A stretch of DNA of 14,554 nt, taken from IMG/VR virus record IMGVR_UViG_2579778702_000011; one strand, given 5' to 3'. The DNA is from a virus. Taxonomy: Duplodnaviria > Heunggongvirae > Uroviricota > Caudoviricetes. This document shows, in pieces, positions 7,041 to 13,185 of the stretch; positions within the stretch are counted from its first letter, which is position 1; every line of letters starts with the position of its first letter. Below the pieces are notes generated by a model. That model was not told where the DNA came from. It worked only from the letters and a program-made list of their open reading frames with translations, and made no database searches. The position numbers were made by a program, and so were the translations under genes.

Positions 7041-7697
7041 ATGAAGTCTTTAGGTGAACGTCTCATCAACGCACGGCAAAAAGCTGGGTTAACACAAGAT
7101 GCGTTGGCTAAAAAAGCTGGGATCACCAGAGTTGCAATCAGTAAAGCCGAGCAAGGCCTTACAAAAAGTTTCAACGGTGACACCCTTTTTAAAGTTGCAG
7201 CTGCACTGCGGTGTTCACCGCAGTGGCTTCAGAACGGAGATGAAAAAGATAAGCATTGGGAAAATAATGTTAAGAGCTGCCCACAGAGAGACACAGCACA
7301 CTCTTACCCTGTAATTAACTGGGTTCAGGCAGGATTATTCGCAACTTCTGGTGATGACTACAACATGTATGATCAGGATAATTGGAGGCATTCTGTAAAA
7401 TACGCTGGTGAGAGGGGGTTCTGGCTGGAAGTGCACGGAGACTCAATGACTTCGCCCGTAGGAATAACATTTCCTGAAGGAATGTCGATCCTTGTCAACC
7501 CAGATAAAGAAGTTTTTTCAGGGTGTTACGTCATCGCCAGAAAAAAATCCACCAATGAAGCAACATTCAAAAAATATATTTCTGACATGGGAAAGGCGTT
7601 TCTAAAGCCCCTTAATCCACAATATCCAATCATAGAAATGGACAATGATTGCGAAATAGTAGGTGTTGTGGTTGATGCCAGGTGGGATATTTTCTGA
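7041..7697 (+). CDS. CI/LexA-type prophage repressor (N-terminal HTH-XRE, C-terminal S24 peptidase autocleavage domain)
   Basis: HTH 'LTQDALAKKAGITRVAISKAEQG'. Ala-Gly cleavage site in 'WVQAGLF'. Catalytic Ser in 'GDSM' and Lys in 'ATFKKY'. SD GAGAGGAG before ATG 7041; the track's upstream ATG at 6966 lacks an SD and would overlap the operators. Confidence 0.9.
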   Translation: MKSLGERLINARQKAGLTQDALAKKAGITRVAISKAEQGLTKSFNGDTLFKVAAALRCSPQWLQNGDEKDKHWENNVKSCPQRDTAHSYPVINWVQAGLFATSGDDYNMYDQDNWRHSVKYAGERGFWLEVHGDSMTSPVGITFPEGMSILVNPDKEVFSGCYVIARKKSTNEATFKKYISDMGKAFLKPLNPQYPIIEMDNDCEIVGVVVDARWDIF

Positions 7698-7723: not shown

Positions 7724-7728
7724 AGAAA

Positions 7729-7805
7729 CCAAAGTATCAAAAATCACTTGCCACACCTTGATACCTTAGTTACCATAAAACAAAGTTCGTAACTGAGGTA
7801 TCATC
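7729..7805. promoter_or_regulatory. OL-like operator/promoter region: the same TATC-core motif in both orientations, with a pL-like promoter candidate
   Basis: aaaGTATCAA (7731..7740), TTGATACC (7758..7765, inverted) and GGTATCA (7798..7804). Promoter candidate TTGCCA (7748..7753)-N17-TACCAT (7771..7776) reading into the gene at 7808. Confidence 0.4.
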
Positions 7806-7807
7806 TC

Positions 7808-8224
7808 ATGATCAATAAAGCTACAACTCTTGACTGTCTCGAAGAACTGAAAAACCTCGGCAGCCTCATTACACTAATAGCAAAAGCAACACCTGATGCT
7901 ACGCTCTCTAGCGATATAGAGTCATGCGCAGGGCTGGCATGGGATATGACAAATAGCATATCCAGAAAGCTATCGTCAGCAATGCTTTTACAGAATAAAA
8001 ATTCTGCAATCAACAACCGTCTTCGCACCCAACGCGAAGCCTGCGGCTTAACAACCGCCGAACTCGCCAGGCTGCTCGATCTCGATGAAGAAATTATCAT
8101 CCAGTGGGAGAGCGGAGAGTATGAACCAACTATCAGTATGCTTATCCCACTGGCAAATATTCTTGGCTGCGATCCGATGTGGCTGTTAACTGGTAAACCA
8201 ACAGGTGGGGATACTTGCGCATGA
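7808..8224 (+). CDS. protein with C-terminal HTH-XRE DNA-binding domain (138 aa); first gene of the pL-like operon
   Basis: HTH 'LTTAELARLLDLDEEIIIQWESGEYEPTISMLIPLANILG'. GAGG 9 nt upstream of ATG 7808. Confidence 0.7.
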   Translation: MINKATTLDCLEELKNLGSLITLIAKATPDATLSSDIESCAGLAWDMTNSISRKLSSAMLLQNKNSAINNRLRTQREACGLTTAELARLLDLDEEIIIQWESGEYEPTISMLIPLANILGCDPMWLLTGKPTGGDTCA

Positions 8225-8463
8225 AAAACTGTGATGCTTACCATATTTGTCTCATTGGTGAATTGCTTGATTTCATACAAAAAAGCACTGCGCGCAATAA
8301 TAAAAATATAACATATGGTGATCTGGTAATAATTTCAGAGGATATAAAGAGCATCGCTCTTAAATTCAAGAGCGACGCGAGTATTGATGACGCTATTTAC
8401 GCTTATCTTGCGAAAATAATTGACGGATCCAAAATCCAGCCTCTGGATGAACCTCGTCAGTGA
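8221..8463 (+). CDS. hypothetical small protein (80 aa), coupled to the HTH gene by ATGA
   Basis: ATG 8221 overlaps the TGA of the upstream gene (the track's 8215 start is a TTG). AT-rich with six ATA codons, so coding status is uncertain. Confidence 0.4.
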   Translation: MKNCDAYHICLIGELLDFIQKSTARNNKNITYGDLVIISEDIKSIALKFKSDASIDDAIYAYLAKIIDGSKIQPLDEPRQ

Positions 8464-8620
8464 AAAACTCCTTTGATGAAGATGAGAACTGCTTCATAAA
8501 CTTTACTTTATCTTCAGGTGAAACTACCTGACGAATTAATGCGGAGATAGCAACTTTGTGCCAAATTAATTCTTTTTTGAGTTCTGAAATCTCTTTTTCG
8601 AGTTGCTCTGCGTTAATCAT
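8393..8620 (-). CDS. hypothetical small coiled-coil protein (75 aa), transcribed against the surrounding plus-strand genes
   Basis: Strong SD GGAGGA 3 nt before ATG 8620. N-terminus EQLEKEISELKKEL. Its 3' end overlaps 8221..8463 convergently by 71 bp. Confidence 0.5.
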   Translation of the reverse strand: MINAEQLEKEISELKKELIWHKVAISALIRQVVSPEDKVKFMKQFSSSSKEFFTDEVHPEAGFWIRQLFSQDKRK

Positions 8621-8731
8621 TTATCCTCCATTGAGAGCTGAATTGAAAATGGGGACCAACACGCGGCTACGTGTGGTCGTGCGCCGGACACGGATAAGCA
8701 TCCGGTAACTGATTATCAATCATTGCGGAAA

Positions 8732-8760
8732 CAGTCTCAATATGAAAACACTTCTGAGAC
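8732..8760. promoter_or_regulatory. inverted repeat AGTCTCA-N15-TGAGACT just upstream of a TATATA -10-like element, in a divergent intergenic region
   Basis: Read directly. Lies between the minus-strand gene ending at 8620 and the plus-strand gene starting at 8800; TATATA is at 8765..8770. Confidence 0.3.
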
Positions 8761-8799
8761 TCGCTATATAGCAGGACATATAAGTCAGCTGAGGAAGCC

Positions 8800-9165
8800 A
8801 TGAAAAAGTTCGAAAACATAACTGTTCTCCATGTTGATGACTTTGATTATACAAACCCGGAACTTCTCCCGGAGGTTGTAAAGGCAATAGATGTTGCCGA
8901 TATAGTGATTAGAGAAAAGAGAATTGTCAAAAACAGGCTCGCATGCACTTCAGGAGCAATGACAGAAACAACCTCACAGCAAGATAATTACGAAGGCATT
9001 TGTCTGGAGCCTGATTCATTTGCGGTAAATGTTTATCATTTATTGCATGCAACACAGGTATTACATATGTCCAGTAATCACGAAACGAAAACACTCGGCA
9101 GCGAAATTCTGAGTTTTGCATGTGAGTATACAAAAGCTGCTGCCGAAAAAGAATTAGCGCAATAA
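8800..9165 (+). CDS. hypothetical protein (121 aa)
   Basis: ORF track; GAGGAAG SD before ATG 8800; no motif recognised. Confidence 0.65.
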   Translation: MKKFENITVLHVDDFDYTNPELLPEVVKAIDVADIVIREKRIVKNRLACTSGAMTETTSQQDNYEGICLEPDSFAVNVYHLLHATQVLHMSSNHETKTLGSEILSFACEYTKAAAEKELAQ

Positions 9166-9243
9166 CAACAAATATGCCCTGAACGTTTATTGCGGTTTTA
9201 TCGCCGGGGATTGTTACAACCTTAATCCACAGGAGGCTTTATT

Positions 9244-9357
9244 GTGACTTTTATAAAGAATATGGCATCACACAAGACCGCCTGCCTTATTGCACAATAC
9301 GGTGAAAATTACATGCATATTGCCTGCTTATTTCTGCGTAAAGCATACGGGAGATAA
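9244..9357 (+). CDS. possible small ORF (37 aa, GTG start)
   Basis: AGGAGG 8 nt upstream of GTG 9244. Ends with TAA 2 nt before the next ATG. Below the ORF-track size threshold; translated by hand. Confidence 0.3.
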   Translation: MTFIKNMASHKTACLIAQYGENYMHIACLFLRKAYGR

Positions 9358-9359
9358 TA

Positions 9360-9590
9360 ATGCATCAGAAAACAGCAGAACACGAACAAACCAGAGTATT
9401 GCTGACCATCAAAAACGGGAAAGTAATATTCATTCGCCATGTTCATGACGATGAACTTGTAGGAACTCTTTCAACATTCCTGTTTATTGCAGAAAGGGCA
9501 GGATATGACGTTATTGCACCAGCAGATGAAGATGAAGATGAAGATGAAGATGAAGATGAAGATGAAGATGAAGATGAAGATGAGGAATAA
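9360..9590 (+). CDS. small protein with C-terminal poly-(Asp-Glu) tail (76 aa; about 55-aa globular part plus (DE)10E)
   Basis: ORF track; the tail is encoded by a perfect (GATGAA)9 tract. Confidence 0.7.
   Translation: MHQKTAEHEQTRVLLTIKNGKVIFIRHVHDDELVGTLSTFLFIAERAGYDVIAPADEDEDEDEDEDEDEDEDEDEE
9525..9578 (+). repeat. hexanucleotide microsatellite (GATGAA)x9, in frame
   Basis: Read directly; followed by GATGAGGAATAA. Confidence 0.95.
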
Positions 9591-9595
9591 ATATC

Positions 9596-10177
9596 ATGCA
9601 ATACGATGAATTCCAGGCTGAAGCAACAGCCAATGGTATACGAACTGGCAGTATGACGATTGATTATCACGACGCCATACGTCGTCTGGATGCCGGAGAA
9701 TTCGATACTCCTAATGTGCGAGGTTTACGTATCCTTCAGTGTCTGGCGCAAGCCGACGAAGCAGGATTACTGGGTAAACTTCCGGTTGAGATGAAGGTTG
9801 CTCAGTGGCGATGGTTGTATGTGACGACATTCATCAACGAAGAAGAAGACAAGAACGGCACAATTGATATCTTGAATGAACACGGAACAACTGAACACGC
9901 CGTGGTATATAACGGGATGTATGGGTTTATGACGATATATCCCGGCCCCATTCGATTTGCCTTACAACAGTATATTGAATGGAATTTAATTCAAAAATAC
10001 GGCGAAGCTGAAGGAATGGGAAGAGCGCTGTTTCTTTATCAGAAAATGCTCACTACTTCCCCTGATAAAGGTTTCATTCTTTCAGATATGGGTCGAGAAG
10101 GGCTTGAAATCCTTCTGGATGAAATTATTAACGAAATGAATACTCATGGCATGCAATCCGAAACAGATATTAAGTAA
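9596..10177 (+). CDS. hypothetical protein (193 aa)
   Basis: ORF track; GAGGA 9 nt upstream of ATG 9596; no motif recognised. Confidence 0.65.
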   Translation: MQYDEFQAEATANGIRTGSMTIDYHDAIRRLDAGEFDTPNVRGLRILQCLAQADEAGLLGKLPVEMKVAQWRWLYVTTFINEEEDKNGTIDILNEHGTTEHAVVYNGMYGFMTIYPGPIRFALQQYIEWNLIQKYGEAEGMGRALFLYQKMLTTSPDKGFILSDMGREGLEILLDEIINEMNTHGMQSETDIK

Positions 10178-10187
10178 AAGGGACCAC

Positions 10188-10409
10188 ATGACCGTTATCG
10201 AGCATATCCAGGAAAATCCAGATTGCAGTAGAGAAGATATATCCCTCGCACTTGGAAGAAGCGCAACTTCTATCAGTAATGAATTATCACGGTTATTGTG
10301 GAATGGGTTAATAGTACGAACTGGAGAAAAAAACAAAATGATTCTGTACTGCGTAAACAATCTGCCGTTTGGATACAGCAATCCCCTCAGTGTTATGTTC
10401 AACCAGTGA
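10188..10409 (+). CDS. small protein, possibly winged-helix DNA-binding (73 aa)
   Basis: ATG 10188 with AAAGGGA upstream (the track start 10146 overlaps the previous gene and lacks an SD). Segment 'DISLALGRSATSISNELSRLLWNGLIVRTGEK' resembles a wHTH. Weak. Confidence 0.5.
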   Translation: MTVIEHIQENPDCSREDISLALGRSATSISNELSRLLWNGLIVRTGEKNKMILYCVNNLPFGYSNPLSVMFNQ

Positions 10410-10452
10410 TAGTGATGTTCCGACAGGAGAGAGCAGAGAAAGGGGAATCAGC

Positions 10453-11193
10453 ATGAAATTTTCCAAATTTTCTGAGTTGGTGAATCGTATTTTGTCCAAC
10501 AACCACAGCCATCGTCGCGATATGGATGTAACGATCGTTGTTCATTCGCCTGGCAGCATTGGTTCAACACCCTCAGTTGAAGTTCAGTCAATTCACGCTG
10601 GTTTTGATTGGGATTCCGGGAAAGTGCTGATTTTCCCAGCACAGCCACTGACCACTCTAACACCAGAACAGATTACTGATATTACTGATAGTGTGCGCAA
10701 AGGTCAGTCCTGGCACGCATATCAGGAATACAAGAAGCATAAAGAGCAGTTGGAAAAATTATCGATTGAACTTGATGCCGCAAAACAGCGCATTGCAGAG
10801 CTGGAGGGTAATTTCACGGCGCTGGCAGCGGAGAATGCGGGAATAAAGTCTGCAATTCCAGAATCACGGGATATTGAAGATGACAATGACAATATGGATG
10901 ACGTATCTCTCGCGGAAGACTTCGGGTTCAATCATGCAATAGAACGGATGAGGAGACAGATACCTGAAACGCCAACCACTGATGCTTTCCTGGCTGAAGT
11001 CCGGGCGCAGGGGGTGGATGCTGCTATAGAAGCTGCAAAAAATCTGGTGGCCCAAGAATATGAGTATAAGGATTTCAAAGCGGCGCAGAGTGATTGCTGT
11101 ATGTACCCTGGTTCAGACCTGGTAGGGAAGGTTGAAATGACTGAGTGGTTAGTTGACTTTGCTGCCCAGCTTCGCAAAGGAGGCAACCAGTGA
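10453..11193 (+). CDS. coiled-coil accessory protein, Ead/Ea22-like (tentative)
   Basis: ATG 10453 with AAAGGGGA SD (the track's 10369 start is a TTG). Central coiled coil (EQLEKLSIELDAAKQRIAELEGNF). Family assignment is from memory only. Confidence 0.6.
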   Translation: MKFSKFSELVNRILSNNHSHRRDMDVTIVVHSPGSIGSTPSVEVQSIHAGFDWDSGKVLIFPAQPLTTLTPEQITDITDSVRKGQSWHAYQEYKKHKEQLEKLSIELDAAKQRIAELEGNFTALAAENAGIKSAIPESRDIEDDNDNMDDVSLAEDFGFNHAIERMRRQIPETPTTDAFLAEVRAQGVDAAIEAAKNLVAQEYEYKDFKAAQSDCCMYPGSDLVGKVEMTEWLVDFAAQLRKGGNQ

Positions 11194-11675
11194 GCGAAAT
11201 TAATTACCAGGCACTGCGTGAGGTGGCGGAACGTGCAATTCCAGCAATGGAACGCCTGTTAATGTTGCCAGCTGATGATGACTTGTTAAGTGAACAGGAA
11301 CTTAAAGATTACGGTGTGGATATTGATGCGCTCAACGCCTTCAAATTTCTGACCGGACTAGAAACCGTGCTGGCACTGCTGGATGAACGGGAAAGAAACC
11401 TGCAATACATCAAAAGCCGCGATCAGGAGAACGAGGATATTGCGCTAACGGTAGGGAAGCTGCGCGTTGAGCTTGAAGCAGAAAAACAGCGGGCAAAAGT
11501 TCTATTTATGGAAAATGCTCGGCTTAAGTCAGGCATAGCCGGTCTGATACACCTCGGTATTCGATATGCAGATGTTGAGGTCATGAAAATTGCTGGAGAT
11601 GCCCAGCTTTCTACCCCATGCACTGACAGCATCATAAACAGCATTGCAACAGGCATTCGCATCAAAGGAGAGTGA
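11190..11675 (+). CDS. accessory protein, Ead/Ea22-like (tentative), GTG start
   Basis: AAGGAGG 7 nt before GTG 11190, which overlaps the upstream stop (GTGA). N-terminus 'MSEINYQALREVAERA'. Family assignment is from memory only. Confidence 0.6.
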   Translation: MSEINYQALREVAERAIPAMERLLMLPADDDLLSEQELKDYGVDIDALNAFKFLTGLETVLALLDERERNLQYIKSRDQENEDIALTVGKLRVELEAEKQRAKVLFMENARLKSGIAGLIHLGIRYADVEVMKIAGDAQLSTPCTDSIINSIATGIRIKGE

Positions 11676-12948: not shown

Positions 12949-13185
12949 ATGGGCAATGTGATTCAACTGGCTCCCAATGAATGGGTTTGTGAAAGCGTTC
13001 TTATCGCAATTACCGGGCTCAAACCAGGCACAATTCTTCGGGCCCGGAAAGAATGCTGGATGGTTGGAAGAGAGTATATTCACGTATCACCAGACGGTAA
13101 TCCAAAGCCTTCCAGTGAATGTATGTATAACAGAAAAGCAATAGATGCCTGGGTCGCCTCAATGAAAAACAAACAACCCAGGTGA
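12949..13185 (+). CDS. xis: excisionase-like small DNA-binding protein (DUF1233/Xis-like)
   Basis: 78 aa immediately upstream of the integrase. Motifs 'NEWV...ITGLKPGTILRARKE...GREYIHV...AIDAWV' resemble prophage excisionase-like proteins. GAGGT SD. Confidence 0.65.
   Translation: MGNVIQLAPNEWVCESVLIAITGLKPGTILRARKECWMVGREYIHVSPDGNPKPSSECMYNRKAIDAWVASMKNKQPR

What the first reader, a model, noticed from the sequence alone, without database searches (positions are those of the whole stretch)
8800..10177. Cluster of unrecognisable accessory genes behind their own divergent promoter region
The genes at 8800..9165, the possible 37-aa ORF, the acidic-tail gene and 9596..10177 all have good ribosome-binding sites but no motif I can assign. 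They occupy the position where lambda carries ral, sieB, kil and cIII-type functions. If the window hides an undescribed defence or anti-defence module, this is a prime candidate, but I cannot assign a mechanism from sequence alone.
Basis: inference. Interest (0 to 1): 0.55.

Follow-up and report, generated by a model that had tools for sequence, protein, structure and literature searches.

The report
Uncharacterised early-left genes of P27-like prophage
The four open reading frames are real, conserved genes of unknown function in the repressor-controlled early operon of a common E. coli prophage (relatives of phage phiP27), and nothing found here marks them as a defence system.

Summary
ORFs 8800-9165 (121 aa), 9244-9357 (37 aa), 9360-9590 (76 aa) and 9596-10177 (193 aa) have Shine-Dalgarno sites and are under purifying selection. 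They stay contiguous in all 83 related Escherichia loci examined. They correspond to phiP27 L08, an unannotated 37-aa gene, L07 and L06, all catalogued as hypothetical. Pfam, NCBIfam, PADLOC and PDB give no assignment.

The "own divergent promoter" is not supported. The cI operators and a promoter-like site lie at 7725-7802, upstream of an HTH gene. In sister phages the cluster follows that gene directly. The 8621-8799 gap is one edge of a 518-nt insertion.

Three partial clues emerged:
- The 121-aa protein ends in a helical hairpin that also forms the N-terminus of the upstream HTH regulator in sister phages.
- The acidic tail is a GATGAA microsatellite of variable length. It is absent from phiP27.
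- The 193-aa protein belongs to an Enterobacterales-wide acidic family with a confident model but no matching fold. The family occurs in phage early-left operons and in P4-like islands.

At larger evolutionary distances the genes assort independently. This is an ordinary set of early accessory genes of unknown function. Anti-defence remains possible but untested.

The parts
7725..7802 (+). OL-like operator triplet (7725-7738, 7760-7773, 7789-7802) with a promoter-like site at 7748-7776 (TTGCCA-17-TACCAT). This is the probable pL that drives the whole early-left operon, the cluster included.
   Evidence: The pattern GATACYTTRGTWAY gives 7 matches (6 sites) where 0.61 are expected, all at 6947-7016 or 7725-7802. 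Repeats D4, I4, I6 and I10. Promoter scan.
7808..8224 (+). First gene of the operon: a 138-aa protein with a C-terminal Xre/HTH_3 domain (residues 72-126) and an N-terminal domain of 'type 1'.
   Evidence: Pfam HTH_3 at 2.6e-11. PHROG 4739 and 4836. The HTH segment 8021-8194 is 95-100% identical in phages whose N-terminal domain and cI differ.
8195..8712 (.). 518-nt variable insertion. It carries the 3' end of the HTH gene, an 82-aa ORF (8215-8463, +) and a convergent 75-aa gene (8393-8620, -). L006 and L003 have 158 nt in its place. This insertion creates the apparent 'divergent' gap upstream of the cluster.
   Evidence: blastn breakpoints. Presence or absence across loci. PHROG 23054 and 20080. 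A - strand promoter-like site at 8740-8712 and a terminator-like hairpin at 8378-8351.
8800..9165 (+). 121-aa protein, the orthologue of phiP27 L08. It has an N-terminal alpha/beta domain of about 50 aa that is optional and absent from many relatives, then a disordered linker, then a C-terminal helical hairpin (residues about 69-120). The hairpin also exists as a stand-alone 63-68-aa protein.
   Evidence: PHROG 5451 at 1.7e-83 and PHROG 4587. Homologues and alignment. AF2 model with pLDDT 64.8 and helices 74-89 and 94-120. Similarity to HTH-regulator N-termini. phiP27 annotation.
9244..9357 (+). 37-aa basic protein (pI 9.5) with GTG start, a perfect AGGAGG site and a conserved C-terminus LRKAYGR. 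Its stop lies 2 nt before the next start.
   Evidence: pN/pS 0.23. Present in all 83 loci. Homologues in L092, Fels-1 and L099. Annotated in Stx1_14040 and PhiR49_2.
9360..9590 (+). 76-aa protein, the orthologue of phiP27 L07. A conserved core of about 55 aa is followed by a (Asp-Glu)n tail encoded by a GATGAA microsatellite at 9524-9583.
   Evidence: PHROG 340 at 7e-24, with weak matches to the C-terminal part of antirepressor PHROGs 4792 (2.3e-6) and 2379. TRF finds 10 units. Tail length is 7-23 aa across loci and the tail is absent from phiP27-type copies. tblastn to phiP27, Fels-1 and Klebsiella phages.
9596..10177 (+). 193-aa acidic protein (pI 4.6, net charge -14), the orthologue of phiP27 L06. 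It belongs to a family found across Enterobacterales whose fold matches nothing known.
10146..10409 (+). MarR-like winged-helix ORF. It is 87 aa from ATG 10146, which overlaps the end of the 193-aa gene, or 73 aa from ATG 10188 behind AAGGGA. It is an optional neighbour and not part of the conserved four.
   Evidence: Pfam MarR_2 at 8.2e-5, below the curated cut-off. PHROG 1687 at 3.7e-20. Absent from 25 of the 83 loci.

Best explanation
The four ORFs are promoter-proximal accessory genes of the cI-repressed early-left (pL) operon of a phiP27-like lambdoid prophage inserted at yecE.

Inferred expression. They are silent in the lysogen. After induction or infection they are transcribed from the operator-flanked promoter at about 7748-7776. 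The transcript would pass through the HTH gene and the cluster and continue towards xis and int.

Inferred mode of action. The products are small proteins with no enzymatic or DNA-binding signature. They most likely act by binding other proteins.

The 121-aa protein (inferred). It carries a free-standing copy of the helical hairpin that forms the N-terminal, non-DNA-binding domain of the operon's first-gene HTH regulator in sister phages. It probably pairs with such hairpins, or with their partner. That would modulate the regulator in the way SinI antagonises SinR.

The 37-aa, acidic-core and 193-aa genes (inferred). They are tightly packed and probably translationally coupled. They are separable accessory functions, not subunits of one machine. 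The 193-aa acidic protein most likely sequesters a host protein early in lytic development of both phages and P4-like satellites.

Shown here: gene reality, operon position, conservation, domain sharing and the absence of known homologues. Inferred: transcription from pL, protein-binding action, the SinI-like role and the host target.
For: Identity of the element. The window is 99.6% identical to an E. coli prophage lying between the Q antiterminator gene and yecE/yecN. The gene order matches phiP27 L11(cI)-L10-L08-L07-L06.

Operators and promoter. Operator-like sites occur only at OR and at 7725-7802, and a promoter-like site lies at 7748-7776. No + strand terminator-like site lies between 7800 and 12600.

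Co-transcription. In Stx1_14040 and L081 the first cluster gene follows the HTH gene by 6 nt. The gap in the window is an insertion.

Gene reality. Purifying selection acts on all four genes. They are contiguous in 83 of 83 loci. Part of the query matches in 1120 of 5426 complete E. coli genomes.

Hairpin sharing. Residues 69-115 of the 121-aa protein are 43% identical (E 5e-10) to residues 24-70 of the HTH regulators of L081 and PhiR49_2. An HMM of the hairpin hits type-4 regulators (phiP27, L092) at 2.5e-9 and 2e-7. hhalign gives 78% probability to the 88-aa gene that follows the regulator in distant L092. The model shows a two-helix hairpin.

No known function. Pfam, NCBIfam, PADLOC and PDB give no hits.

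The 193-aa family. It is mostly acidic. It sits in early operons of temperate phages and of P4-like islands.
Against: - No transcript data exist. A weak or non-sigma-70 promoter in 8621-8799 cannot be excluded, and the convergent 75-aa gene could impede read-through from pL.
- The window's own regulator (type 1) shows no detectable similarity to the hairpin of the 121-aa protein.
- Variants of the 121-aa protein track the 3' part of the regulator gene, not its N-terminal type. That argues against a co-evolving heterodimer.
- 'Protein binding' for the 193-aa protein rests only on acidity and the lack of motifs. Its conserved polar residues (D37, R72, Y105, R120, E128, Y148 and a C-terminal His) could equally form a catalytic site.
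Confidence: 0.45

Rival explanations
1. Counter-defence or host takeover. One or more of the genes (most plausibly the 193-aa protein or the 37-aa/acidic-core pair) inhibits a host immune system or host enzyme early in infection. They would play the role of lambda Ral or Gam, or T7 Ocr.
For: The genes sit directly downstream of pL, where lambdoid phages keep such functions (established knowledge of lambda and P22). They are early and repressor-controlled. The products are small, acidic and lack any enzymatic motif. The genes are mosaic and shuffled among phages. The 193-aa family is shared by phages and P4-like satellites, which suggests a host target. The acidic tail gives net charge -22 to the 76-aa protein.
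Against: No known anti-defence family matches at sequence or fold level. The acidic tail is a length-variable microsatellite, absent from phiP27-type copies, so it is not a conserved DNA mimic. The phage is Chi-rich and lacks a Rec module (PMC12315714), so RecBCD is probably not the target. No phenotype data exist.
Confidence: 0.3
2. Prophage-expressed defence or superinfection-exclusion module with its own promoter. This is the first reader's 'defence' reading, with the cluster in the role of sieB or rex.
For: A 179-nt gap (8621-8799) precedes the cluster in this window. A divergent 75-aa gene has a promoter-like site there. A promoter-like site also lies inside the 121-aa ORF at 8959-8988.
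Against: No + strand promoter-like site lies in the gap. The gap is an insertion edge that is absent from sister phages, where the cluster abuts the upstream gene. PADLOC finds nothing. No membrane, nuclease, ATPase or NTase signature is present. The genes assort independently.
Confidence: 0.07
3. Cryptic recombination or replication function. The 193-aa protein would be an unrecognised single-strand annealing or replication-accessory protein that substitutes for the missing Rec module.
Confidence: 0.07
4. Chance or decaying ORFs without function.
For: The ORFs are short. RefSeq does not annotate the 37-aa ORF and annotates only 68 aa of the 121-aa ORF. Frameshifted copies of the 193-aa gene exist.
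Against: All four have pN/pS of 0.2-0.65. They have strong ribosome-binding sites. Homologues go down to 26-45% identity. They are present in about a fifth of complete E. coli genomes.
Confidence: 0.03

Closest known systems
Phage phiP27 (Stx2e phage, integrates at yecE), ORFs L08, L07 and L06 with upstream L10 and L11
   Same: The gene order is the same: cI - HTH regulator - 121-aa - (37-aa) - small beta/alpha protein - ~193-aa protein. The integrase is of the same type, and the window prophage sits next to yecE/yecN. The 121-aa protein is 95% identical to phiP27-type copies (L082, L083). The 193-aa protein is 67-70% identical and the acidic-core protein 53% identical.
   Different: phiP27 has a type-4 N-terminal domain on the regulator and no acidic tail on L07. 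It also lacks the 82/75-aa insertion, the MarR-like gene and the Ea22 genes. All these ORFs are annotated 'unknown', so the comparison gives no function.
Lambda and P22 early-left accessory genes (ral, sieB, kil, cIII, abc, and others)
   Same: They occupy the same position, between the immunity region and xis/int. They are small genes, repressor-controlled and mosaic.
   Different: No sequence or profile similarity to any of them. No N antiterminator gene was recognised among the early-left proteins scanned. The first pL gene here is an HTH protein. There is no Rec module and the window is Chi-rich, which places the phage in the 'no Rec module' class of PMC12315714.
SinI/SinR-type antagonist-regulator pairs (Bacillus subtilis)
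   Same: A small protein consists largely of a helical module that is homologous to the non-DNA-binding domain of a neighbouring HTH regulator.
   Different: There is no sequence relationship to SinI or SinR. Here the shared domain is N-terminal to the HTH. Sharing is seen with regulator types 2 and 4 but not with the window's own type 1. No interaction was tested.
Acidic DNA-mimic anti-restriction proteins (Ocr, ArdA)
   Same: The 76-aa protein (pI 4.05) and the 193-aa protein (pI 4.6) are strongly acidic, and they are expressed early.
   Different: There is no similarity in sequence or fold. The acidic tail is a variable microsatellite and is dispensable in relatives.

Membership tests
phiP27 L08/L07/L06 orthologue set (PHROG 5451/4587, 340, 1515) | Full-length profile match to the PHROG families and the same gene order as phiP27 | tested here: met
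   PHROG E-values are 1.7e-83, 7e-24 and 3e-90, covering whole proteins. Order and homology to phiP27 and to the phiP27-type loci L082 and L083.
Known anti-phage defence systems (PADLOC-DB v2) | At least one protein matching a defence-system component model | tested here: not met
   Zero hits for all four proteins at E<=0.1. Only generic HTH or wHTH hits appear for the flanking regulators.
Lambda-type early-left functions (Ral, SieB, Kil, cIII) | Sequence or profile similarity to the named families | tested here: not met
   No Pfam, NCBIfam or PHROG hit to any of them. Only the position is analogous.
Lambdoid Rec module (Exo, Beta/RecT/Erf/Sak, Gam/Abc2) | Profile or fold match to a nuclease, an annealing protein or a RecBCD inhibitor | tested here: not met
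SinI/SinR-like antagonist-regulator pair | The small protein is homologous to the oligomerisation (non-DNA-binding) domain of the adjacent HTH regulator | tested here: inconclusive
   Met for PhiR49_2 and L081 (BLASTP E 5e-10 and 9e-10) and for type-4 regulators (HMM 2.5e-9). Not met for the window's own regulator (E 0.72, hhalign probability 0.2%).
SinI/SinR-like antagonist-regulator pair | Physical heterodimer that blocks DNA binding by the regulator | not testable with these tools
   It needs two-hybrid, pull-down or multimer structure prediction. Only single-chain prediction was available.
DNA-mimic anti-restriction proteins (Ocr/ArdA type) | A conserved, structured array of acidic residues that mimics the DNA backbone | tested here: not met
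   The acidic residues form a C-terminal (Asp-Glu)n run that varies from 7 to 23 aa. It is replaced by PPAKEQTL in phiP27-type copies. There is no ArdA or Ocr profile hit.
Phage antirepressors (Ant/KilA/ORF6N type) | An N-terminal DNA-binding or BRO/KilA-N/ORF6N domain plus an ANT-type C-terminal domain | tested here: not met
   The 76-aa protein matches only about 40 residues of the C-terminal part of PHROGs 4792 and 2379. It has no Pfam Ant domain. It has no similarity to the ORF6N proteins next to distant homologues of the 193-aa protein.

The most novel reading that the evidence does not exclude
The 193-aa family would be a new fold with a conserved polar set and a conserved C-terminal His. 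It has about 100 clusters at 50% identity across Enterobacterales and occurs in early operons of both temperate phages and P4-like satellites. On this reading it is a previously unrecognised inhibitor of a host defence or host DNA-transaction system. The free-standing regulatory-domain copies (the hairpin of the 121-aa protein and the antirepressor-like core of the 76-aa protein) would act as decoys against the regulators of competing phages.
Probability: 0.2. Interest if true: 0.6.

Novelty: new member of a known kind. Interest (0 to 1): 0.3.

Why it matters
Part of the cluster is present in about a fifth of complete E. coli genomes, including Stx1- and Stx2-converting phages. It belongs to the little-studied lambdoid phages that lack a recombination module. 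If any of these genes proved to be a counter-defence or regulatory factor, that would bear on induction and host range of Shiga-toxin phages. The 193-aa family would also add a new fold shared by phages and their satellites. As it stands the result is mainly a clean-up. The genes are real and conserved, they are not a recognisable defence system, and they are not separately promoted.

Tried and rejected
1. Tested whether the acidic-core protein is related to the C-terminus of the ORF6N Ant-like proteins next to distant homologues of the 193-aa protein. BLASTP E was 6.9 and 11. Rejected.
2. Tested whether the acidic-core protein is homologous to the 114-120-aa family upstream of distant homologues of the 193-aa protein. 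hhalign probability was 0.5% and the HMM search was negative. Rejected.
3. Tested the hairpin of the 121-aa protein against the window's own HTH regulator and against type-3 regulators. No similarity.
5. The afdb50 library was unavailable.
6. PDB sequence and profile searches were negative.
7. Rfam found nothing in 8600-10400. Its two hits lie elsewhere in the window.
8. The RNA fold of 8621-8810 is unremarkable, z = -1.6.
9. Literature searches by accession, by phage name and for early-left anti-defence found no functional study of these genes.
A single-protein scan gave 3 loci, from Symbiopectobacterium, Pantoea and an unnamed Enterobacterales bacterium.
11. The plasmid collection holds one record with the cluster. 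The 112 plasmid places therefore come from the flanks of that query.
Full report
**What the window is**

The region 8600-10450 is 99.6% identical to a chromosomal prophage of E. coli strain 100416. That prophage lies between a Q-antiterminator gene and the yecE(DUF72)/yecN/cmoA locus. At least part of the query matches in 1120 of 5426 complete E. coli genomes, and 121 genomes hold 80% or more of it. In the phage collection it matches PhiR49_2 and many Stx1- and Stx2-converting phages, several of them named for insertion at yecE.

The layout of the window is as follows:
- 6720-6929 (-): cro-like gene.
- 7041-7697 (+): LexA-family cI.
- 7808-8224 (+): 138-aa HTH protein.
- 8215-8463 (+): 82-aa ORF.
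- 8393-8620 (-): convergent 75-aa gene.
- 8800-10177 (+): the four ORFs of the finding.
- 10146-10409 (+): MarR-like ORF.
- 10453-11675 (+): two Ea22-like genes.
- 12949-13185 (+): xis.
- From 13241 (+): int.

The cluster corresponds to phiP27 L08, an unannotated 37-aa gene, L07 and L06, downstream of L11 (cI) and L10 (HTH). All are annotated 'unknown'.

**Checking the observation**

The four ORFs exist at the stated coordinates. Each has a Shine-Dalgarno sequence, read directly:
- GAGGA at 8791-8795.
- AGGAGG at 9231-9236.
- GGGAG at 9349-9353.
- GAGGA at 9582-9586.

The ORFs are real genes. Raw pN/pS against diverged copies is:
- 0.23 for the 37-aa ORF (17 synonymous and 14 non-synonymous differences).
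- 0.26-0.29 for the 193-aa gene.
- 0.45 for the core of the 76-aa gene.
- 0.28-0.45 for the C-terminal half of the 121-aa gene.

The N-terminal 50 codons of the 121-aa ORF are less constrained, at 0.59-0.65. They remain open in homologues of 45-60% identity. RefSeq nevertheless calls only the last 68 aa.

None of the four proteins matches Pfam, NCBIfam or PADLOC above threshold, or any PDB sequence. They fall only in PHROG families of unknown function.

**The promoter claim**

Fourteen-base operator-like sites (GATACYTTRGTWAY, up to 2 mismatches) give 7 matches where 0.6 are expected. All lie in two triplets, at 6947-7016 between cro and cI and at 7725-7802 just upstream of the HTH gene (repeats). 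A promoter-like site (TTGCCA-17-TACCAT) lies at 7748-7776. The early-left promoter is therefore upstream of the HTH gene.

The gap at 8621-8799 contains no + strand promoter-like site. It contains one - strand site, at 8740-8712, facing the 75-aa gene. No + strand terminator-like site lies between 7800 and 12600.

Comparison with relatives shows that 8195-8712 is a 518-nt insertion. It replaces 158 nt in L006 and L003. In Stx1_14040 and L081 the first cluster gene starts 6 nt after the HTH gene. The 'own divergent promoter region' is therefore an insertion edge. The cluster is best read as part of the cI-repressed pL operon. This is an inference, because no transcript data exist.

**Conservation as a unit**

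I examined 83 loci: three annotated records and 80 IMG/VR contigs recovered with the 193-aa family. In all of them the 121-aa protein (or its C-terminal 63-68-aa form), the 37-aa protein, the acidic-core protein and the 193-aa protein are contiguous. Meanwhile cI, the N-terminal domain of the HTH regulator, the 82/75-aa insertion, the MarR-like gene and the Ea22 genes vary.

At larger distances the unit dissolves:
- The 193-aa family occurs without detectable partners in other temperate phages (L089, L090) and in P4-like islands (L084, L097, L098).
- In one distant phage, L092, a hairpin protein and a 37-aa homologue do accompany it.
- The 37-aa and acidic-core genes occur without the 193-aa gene in Fels-1 and in L099.

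These are therefore separable accessory genes that travel together in Escherichia phages, not an obligate multi-component system.

**The 121-aa protein**

The AlphaFold model is of modest confidence, with pLDDT 64.8. It shows a small alpha/beta N-terminal domain (residues 9-49), a disordered linker and a two-helix hairpin (74-89 and 94-120). The hairpin also exists alone as a 63-68-aa protein (PHROG 4587) in many phages.

The hairpin is shared with HTH regulators:
- Residues 69-115 are 43% identical to residues 24-70 of the upstream HTH regulators of L081 (E 5e-10) and PhiR49_2 (E 9e-10).
- An HMM of the hairpin detects the N-terminus of type-4 regulators (phiP27-type and L092) at 2.5e-9 and 2e-7.
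- hhalign gives 78% probability to the 88-aa gene that follows the regulator in distant L092.

The regulators carry at least four N-terminal types and either one or two HTH domains. All are joined to a nearly invariant HTH segment, 8021-8194.

**The 37-aa and 76-aa proteins**

The 37-aa protein is basic (pI 9.5). It ends in a conserved LRKAYGR. It has homologues in L092, Fels-1 and L099. Its stop lies 2 nt before the next start codon. The stop of the 76-aa gene lies 5 nt before the start of the 193-aa gene. This spacing suggests translational coupling.

The core of the 76-aa protein matches PHROG 340. It weakly matches about 40 residues near the C-terminus of two antirepressor PHROGs (2.3e-6 and 1.5e-3). 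Tests against the Ant-like ORF6N proteins and against a 115-aa family in distant loci were negative.

The acidic tail is encoded by ten perfect GATGAA units. Across 57 related copies it ranges from 7 to 23 residues, and the window has the longest. phiP27-type copies end in PPAKEQTL instead. The tail is therefore a microsatellite expansion and not a conserved functional element.

**The 193-aa protein**

A word-indexed search found only Escherichia relatives of at least 52% identity. An exhaustive profile search found 102 cluster representatives at E<=1e-3, mostly 190-220 aa. One Pantoea, one Symbiopectobacterium and one unnamed Enterobacterales genome carry relatives.

The alignment shows conserved L31, G34 and D37 (motif LDxGxYD), R72-W73, F79, G88, Y105, R120, E128, Y148, G166 and a C-terminal His. 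The window copy lacks the His, where its 3' end is overlapped by the MarR-like ORF. The family is mostly acidic.

Distant members sit in two kinds of context. The first is an early-left operon of the form cI(S24) - HTH protein of 130-150 aa - small genes - family member - xis/AlpA - int, often beside an ORF6N Ant-like gene. The second is a P4-like island of the form int - AlpA - Ash/AntA - small genes - family member - primase-helicase.

**Interpretation**

These results are shown:
- The genes are real.
- They lie in the early-left operon of a phiP27-like prophage.
- They are conserved and widespread.
- They have no known homologue.
- One carries a domain shared with the operon's regulator.

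These points are inferred:
- The genes are expressed from pL on induction.
- They act by protein binding.
- The 121-aa protein modulates the HTH regulator or its partner.
- The 193-aa protein sequesters a host factor.

A counter-defence role is a reasonable rival, given the position, the timing and the sharing of the 193-aa family with satellites. It has no direct support. A prophage-expressed defence module is unlikely.

The finding is an accurate description of phage genes of unknown function with one wrong structural claim, the promoter. It does not reveal a new system.

**Context from the literature**

The window has 8 Chi sites on one strand and 1 on the other in 14.5 kb. It has no recognisable exo, bet, gam, erf or recT. 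This fits the 'no Rec module, abundant Chi' class of lambdoid phages described in PMC12315714. That paper notes that no phage of this class has been studied in depth, and that no universally present unknown gene occupies their early-left operons.

Noticed in passing
window 5175-5262 (-) and 5287-5363 (-): Rfam gathering-level hits to C4 antisense RNA (82.4 bits) and to the isrK Hfq-binding sRNA (61.6 bits). Both lie inside the mechanical 284-aa ORF 4566-5420, upstream of the Rha/Ant-like coding part. This suggests P1/P7-type antisense control of an antirepressor in the early-right operon.
   Followed up: no
window, whole (- strand Chi at 115, 386, 738, 1388, 3529, 4201, 6173, 12820; + strand Chi at 4301): Eight Chi sequences (GCTGGTGG) on one strand and one on the other in 14.5 kb, where about 0.2 per strand are expected. 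No recombination module lies between cI and int. The prophage fits the 'no Rec module, Chi-rich' lambdoid class of PMC12315714.
   Followed up: partly
window 8195-8712: A 518-nt insertion carries an 82-aa ORF (+, start overlapping the stop of the HTH gene) and a convergent 75-aa coiled-coil gene (-). Their 3' ends overlap by 71 nt. The 75-aa gene has a GGAGGA ribosome-binding site, a promoter-like site at 8740-8712 and a terminator-like hairpin at 8378-8351. It may be a lysogen-expressed moron. It is present in 10 of the 83 related loci.
   Followed up: partly
window 7808-8224 and the equivalent genes in L002, L003, L051, L060, L082 and L092: The first gene after OL is an HTH protein whose HTH segment (8021-8194) is 95-100% identical at nucleotide level across phages. 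Its N-terminal domain comes in at least four unrelated-looking helical types. Its C-terminus carries either one or two HTH domains (138-233 aa). The conserved HTH segment looks like a recombination joint between modules.
   Followed up: partly
window 9524-9583: Perfect (GATGAA)x10 microsatellite inside a coding region. Unit number varies from 2 to 10 among close relatives, so the encoded Asp-Glu tail ranges from 7 to 23 residues.
   Followed up: yes
L084 5041-6004, L089 2890-3253, L088 1-370, L099 3445-3648: Distant loci that carry the 193-aa family or the 37-aa gene hold arrays of 57-71-aa predicted helical-hairpin proteins (for example ...LNALLFTISGEF...LIELAHELSDSVACWLIEE). By eye they resemble the hairpin of the 121-aa protein. 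The HMM scores are marginal (E 8e-4 to above 1).
   Followed up: partly
window 10146-10177: The 193-aa gene and the MarR-like ORF overlap by 32 nt if the latter starts at 10146. An alternative start at 10188 sits behind AAGGGA. The window copy of the 193-aa protein ends ...SETDIK and so lacks the family's conserved ...P-x-x-H C-terminus.
   Followed up: no
L089 6584-7177 and L088 2365-2799: Next to distant homologues of the 193-aa protein lies a protein of about 197 aa (for example MFIHTDILRAALCCVADQTEERRYLHGVHITS...). By recollection only, its N-terminus resembles single-domain DnaN/beta-clamp-like phage proteins. This was not tested.
   Followed up: no
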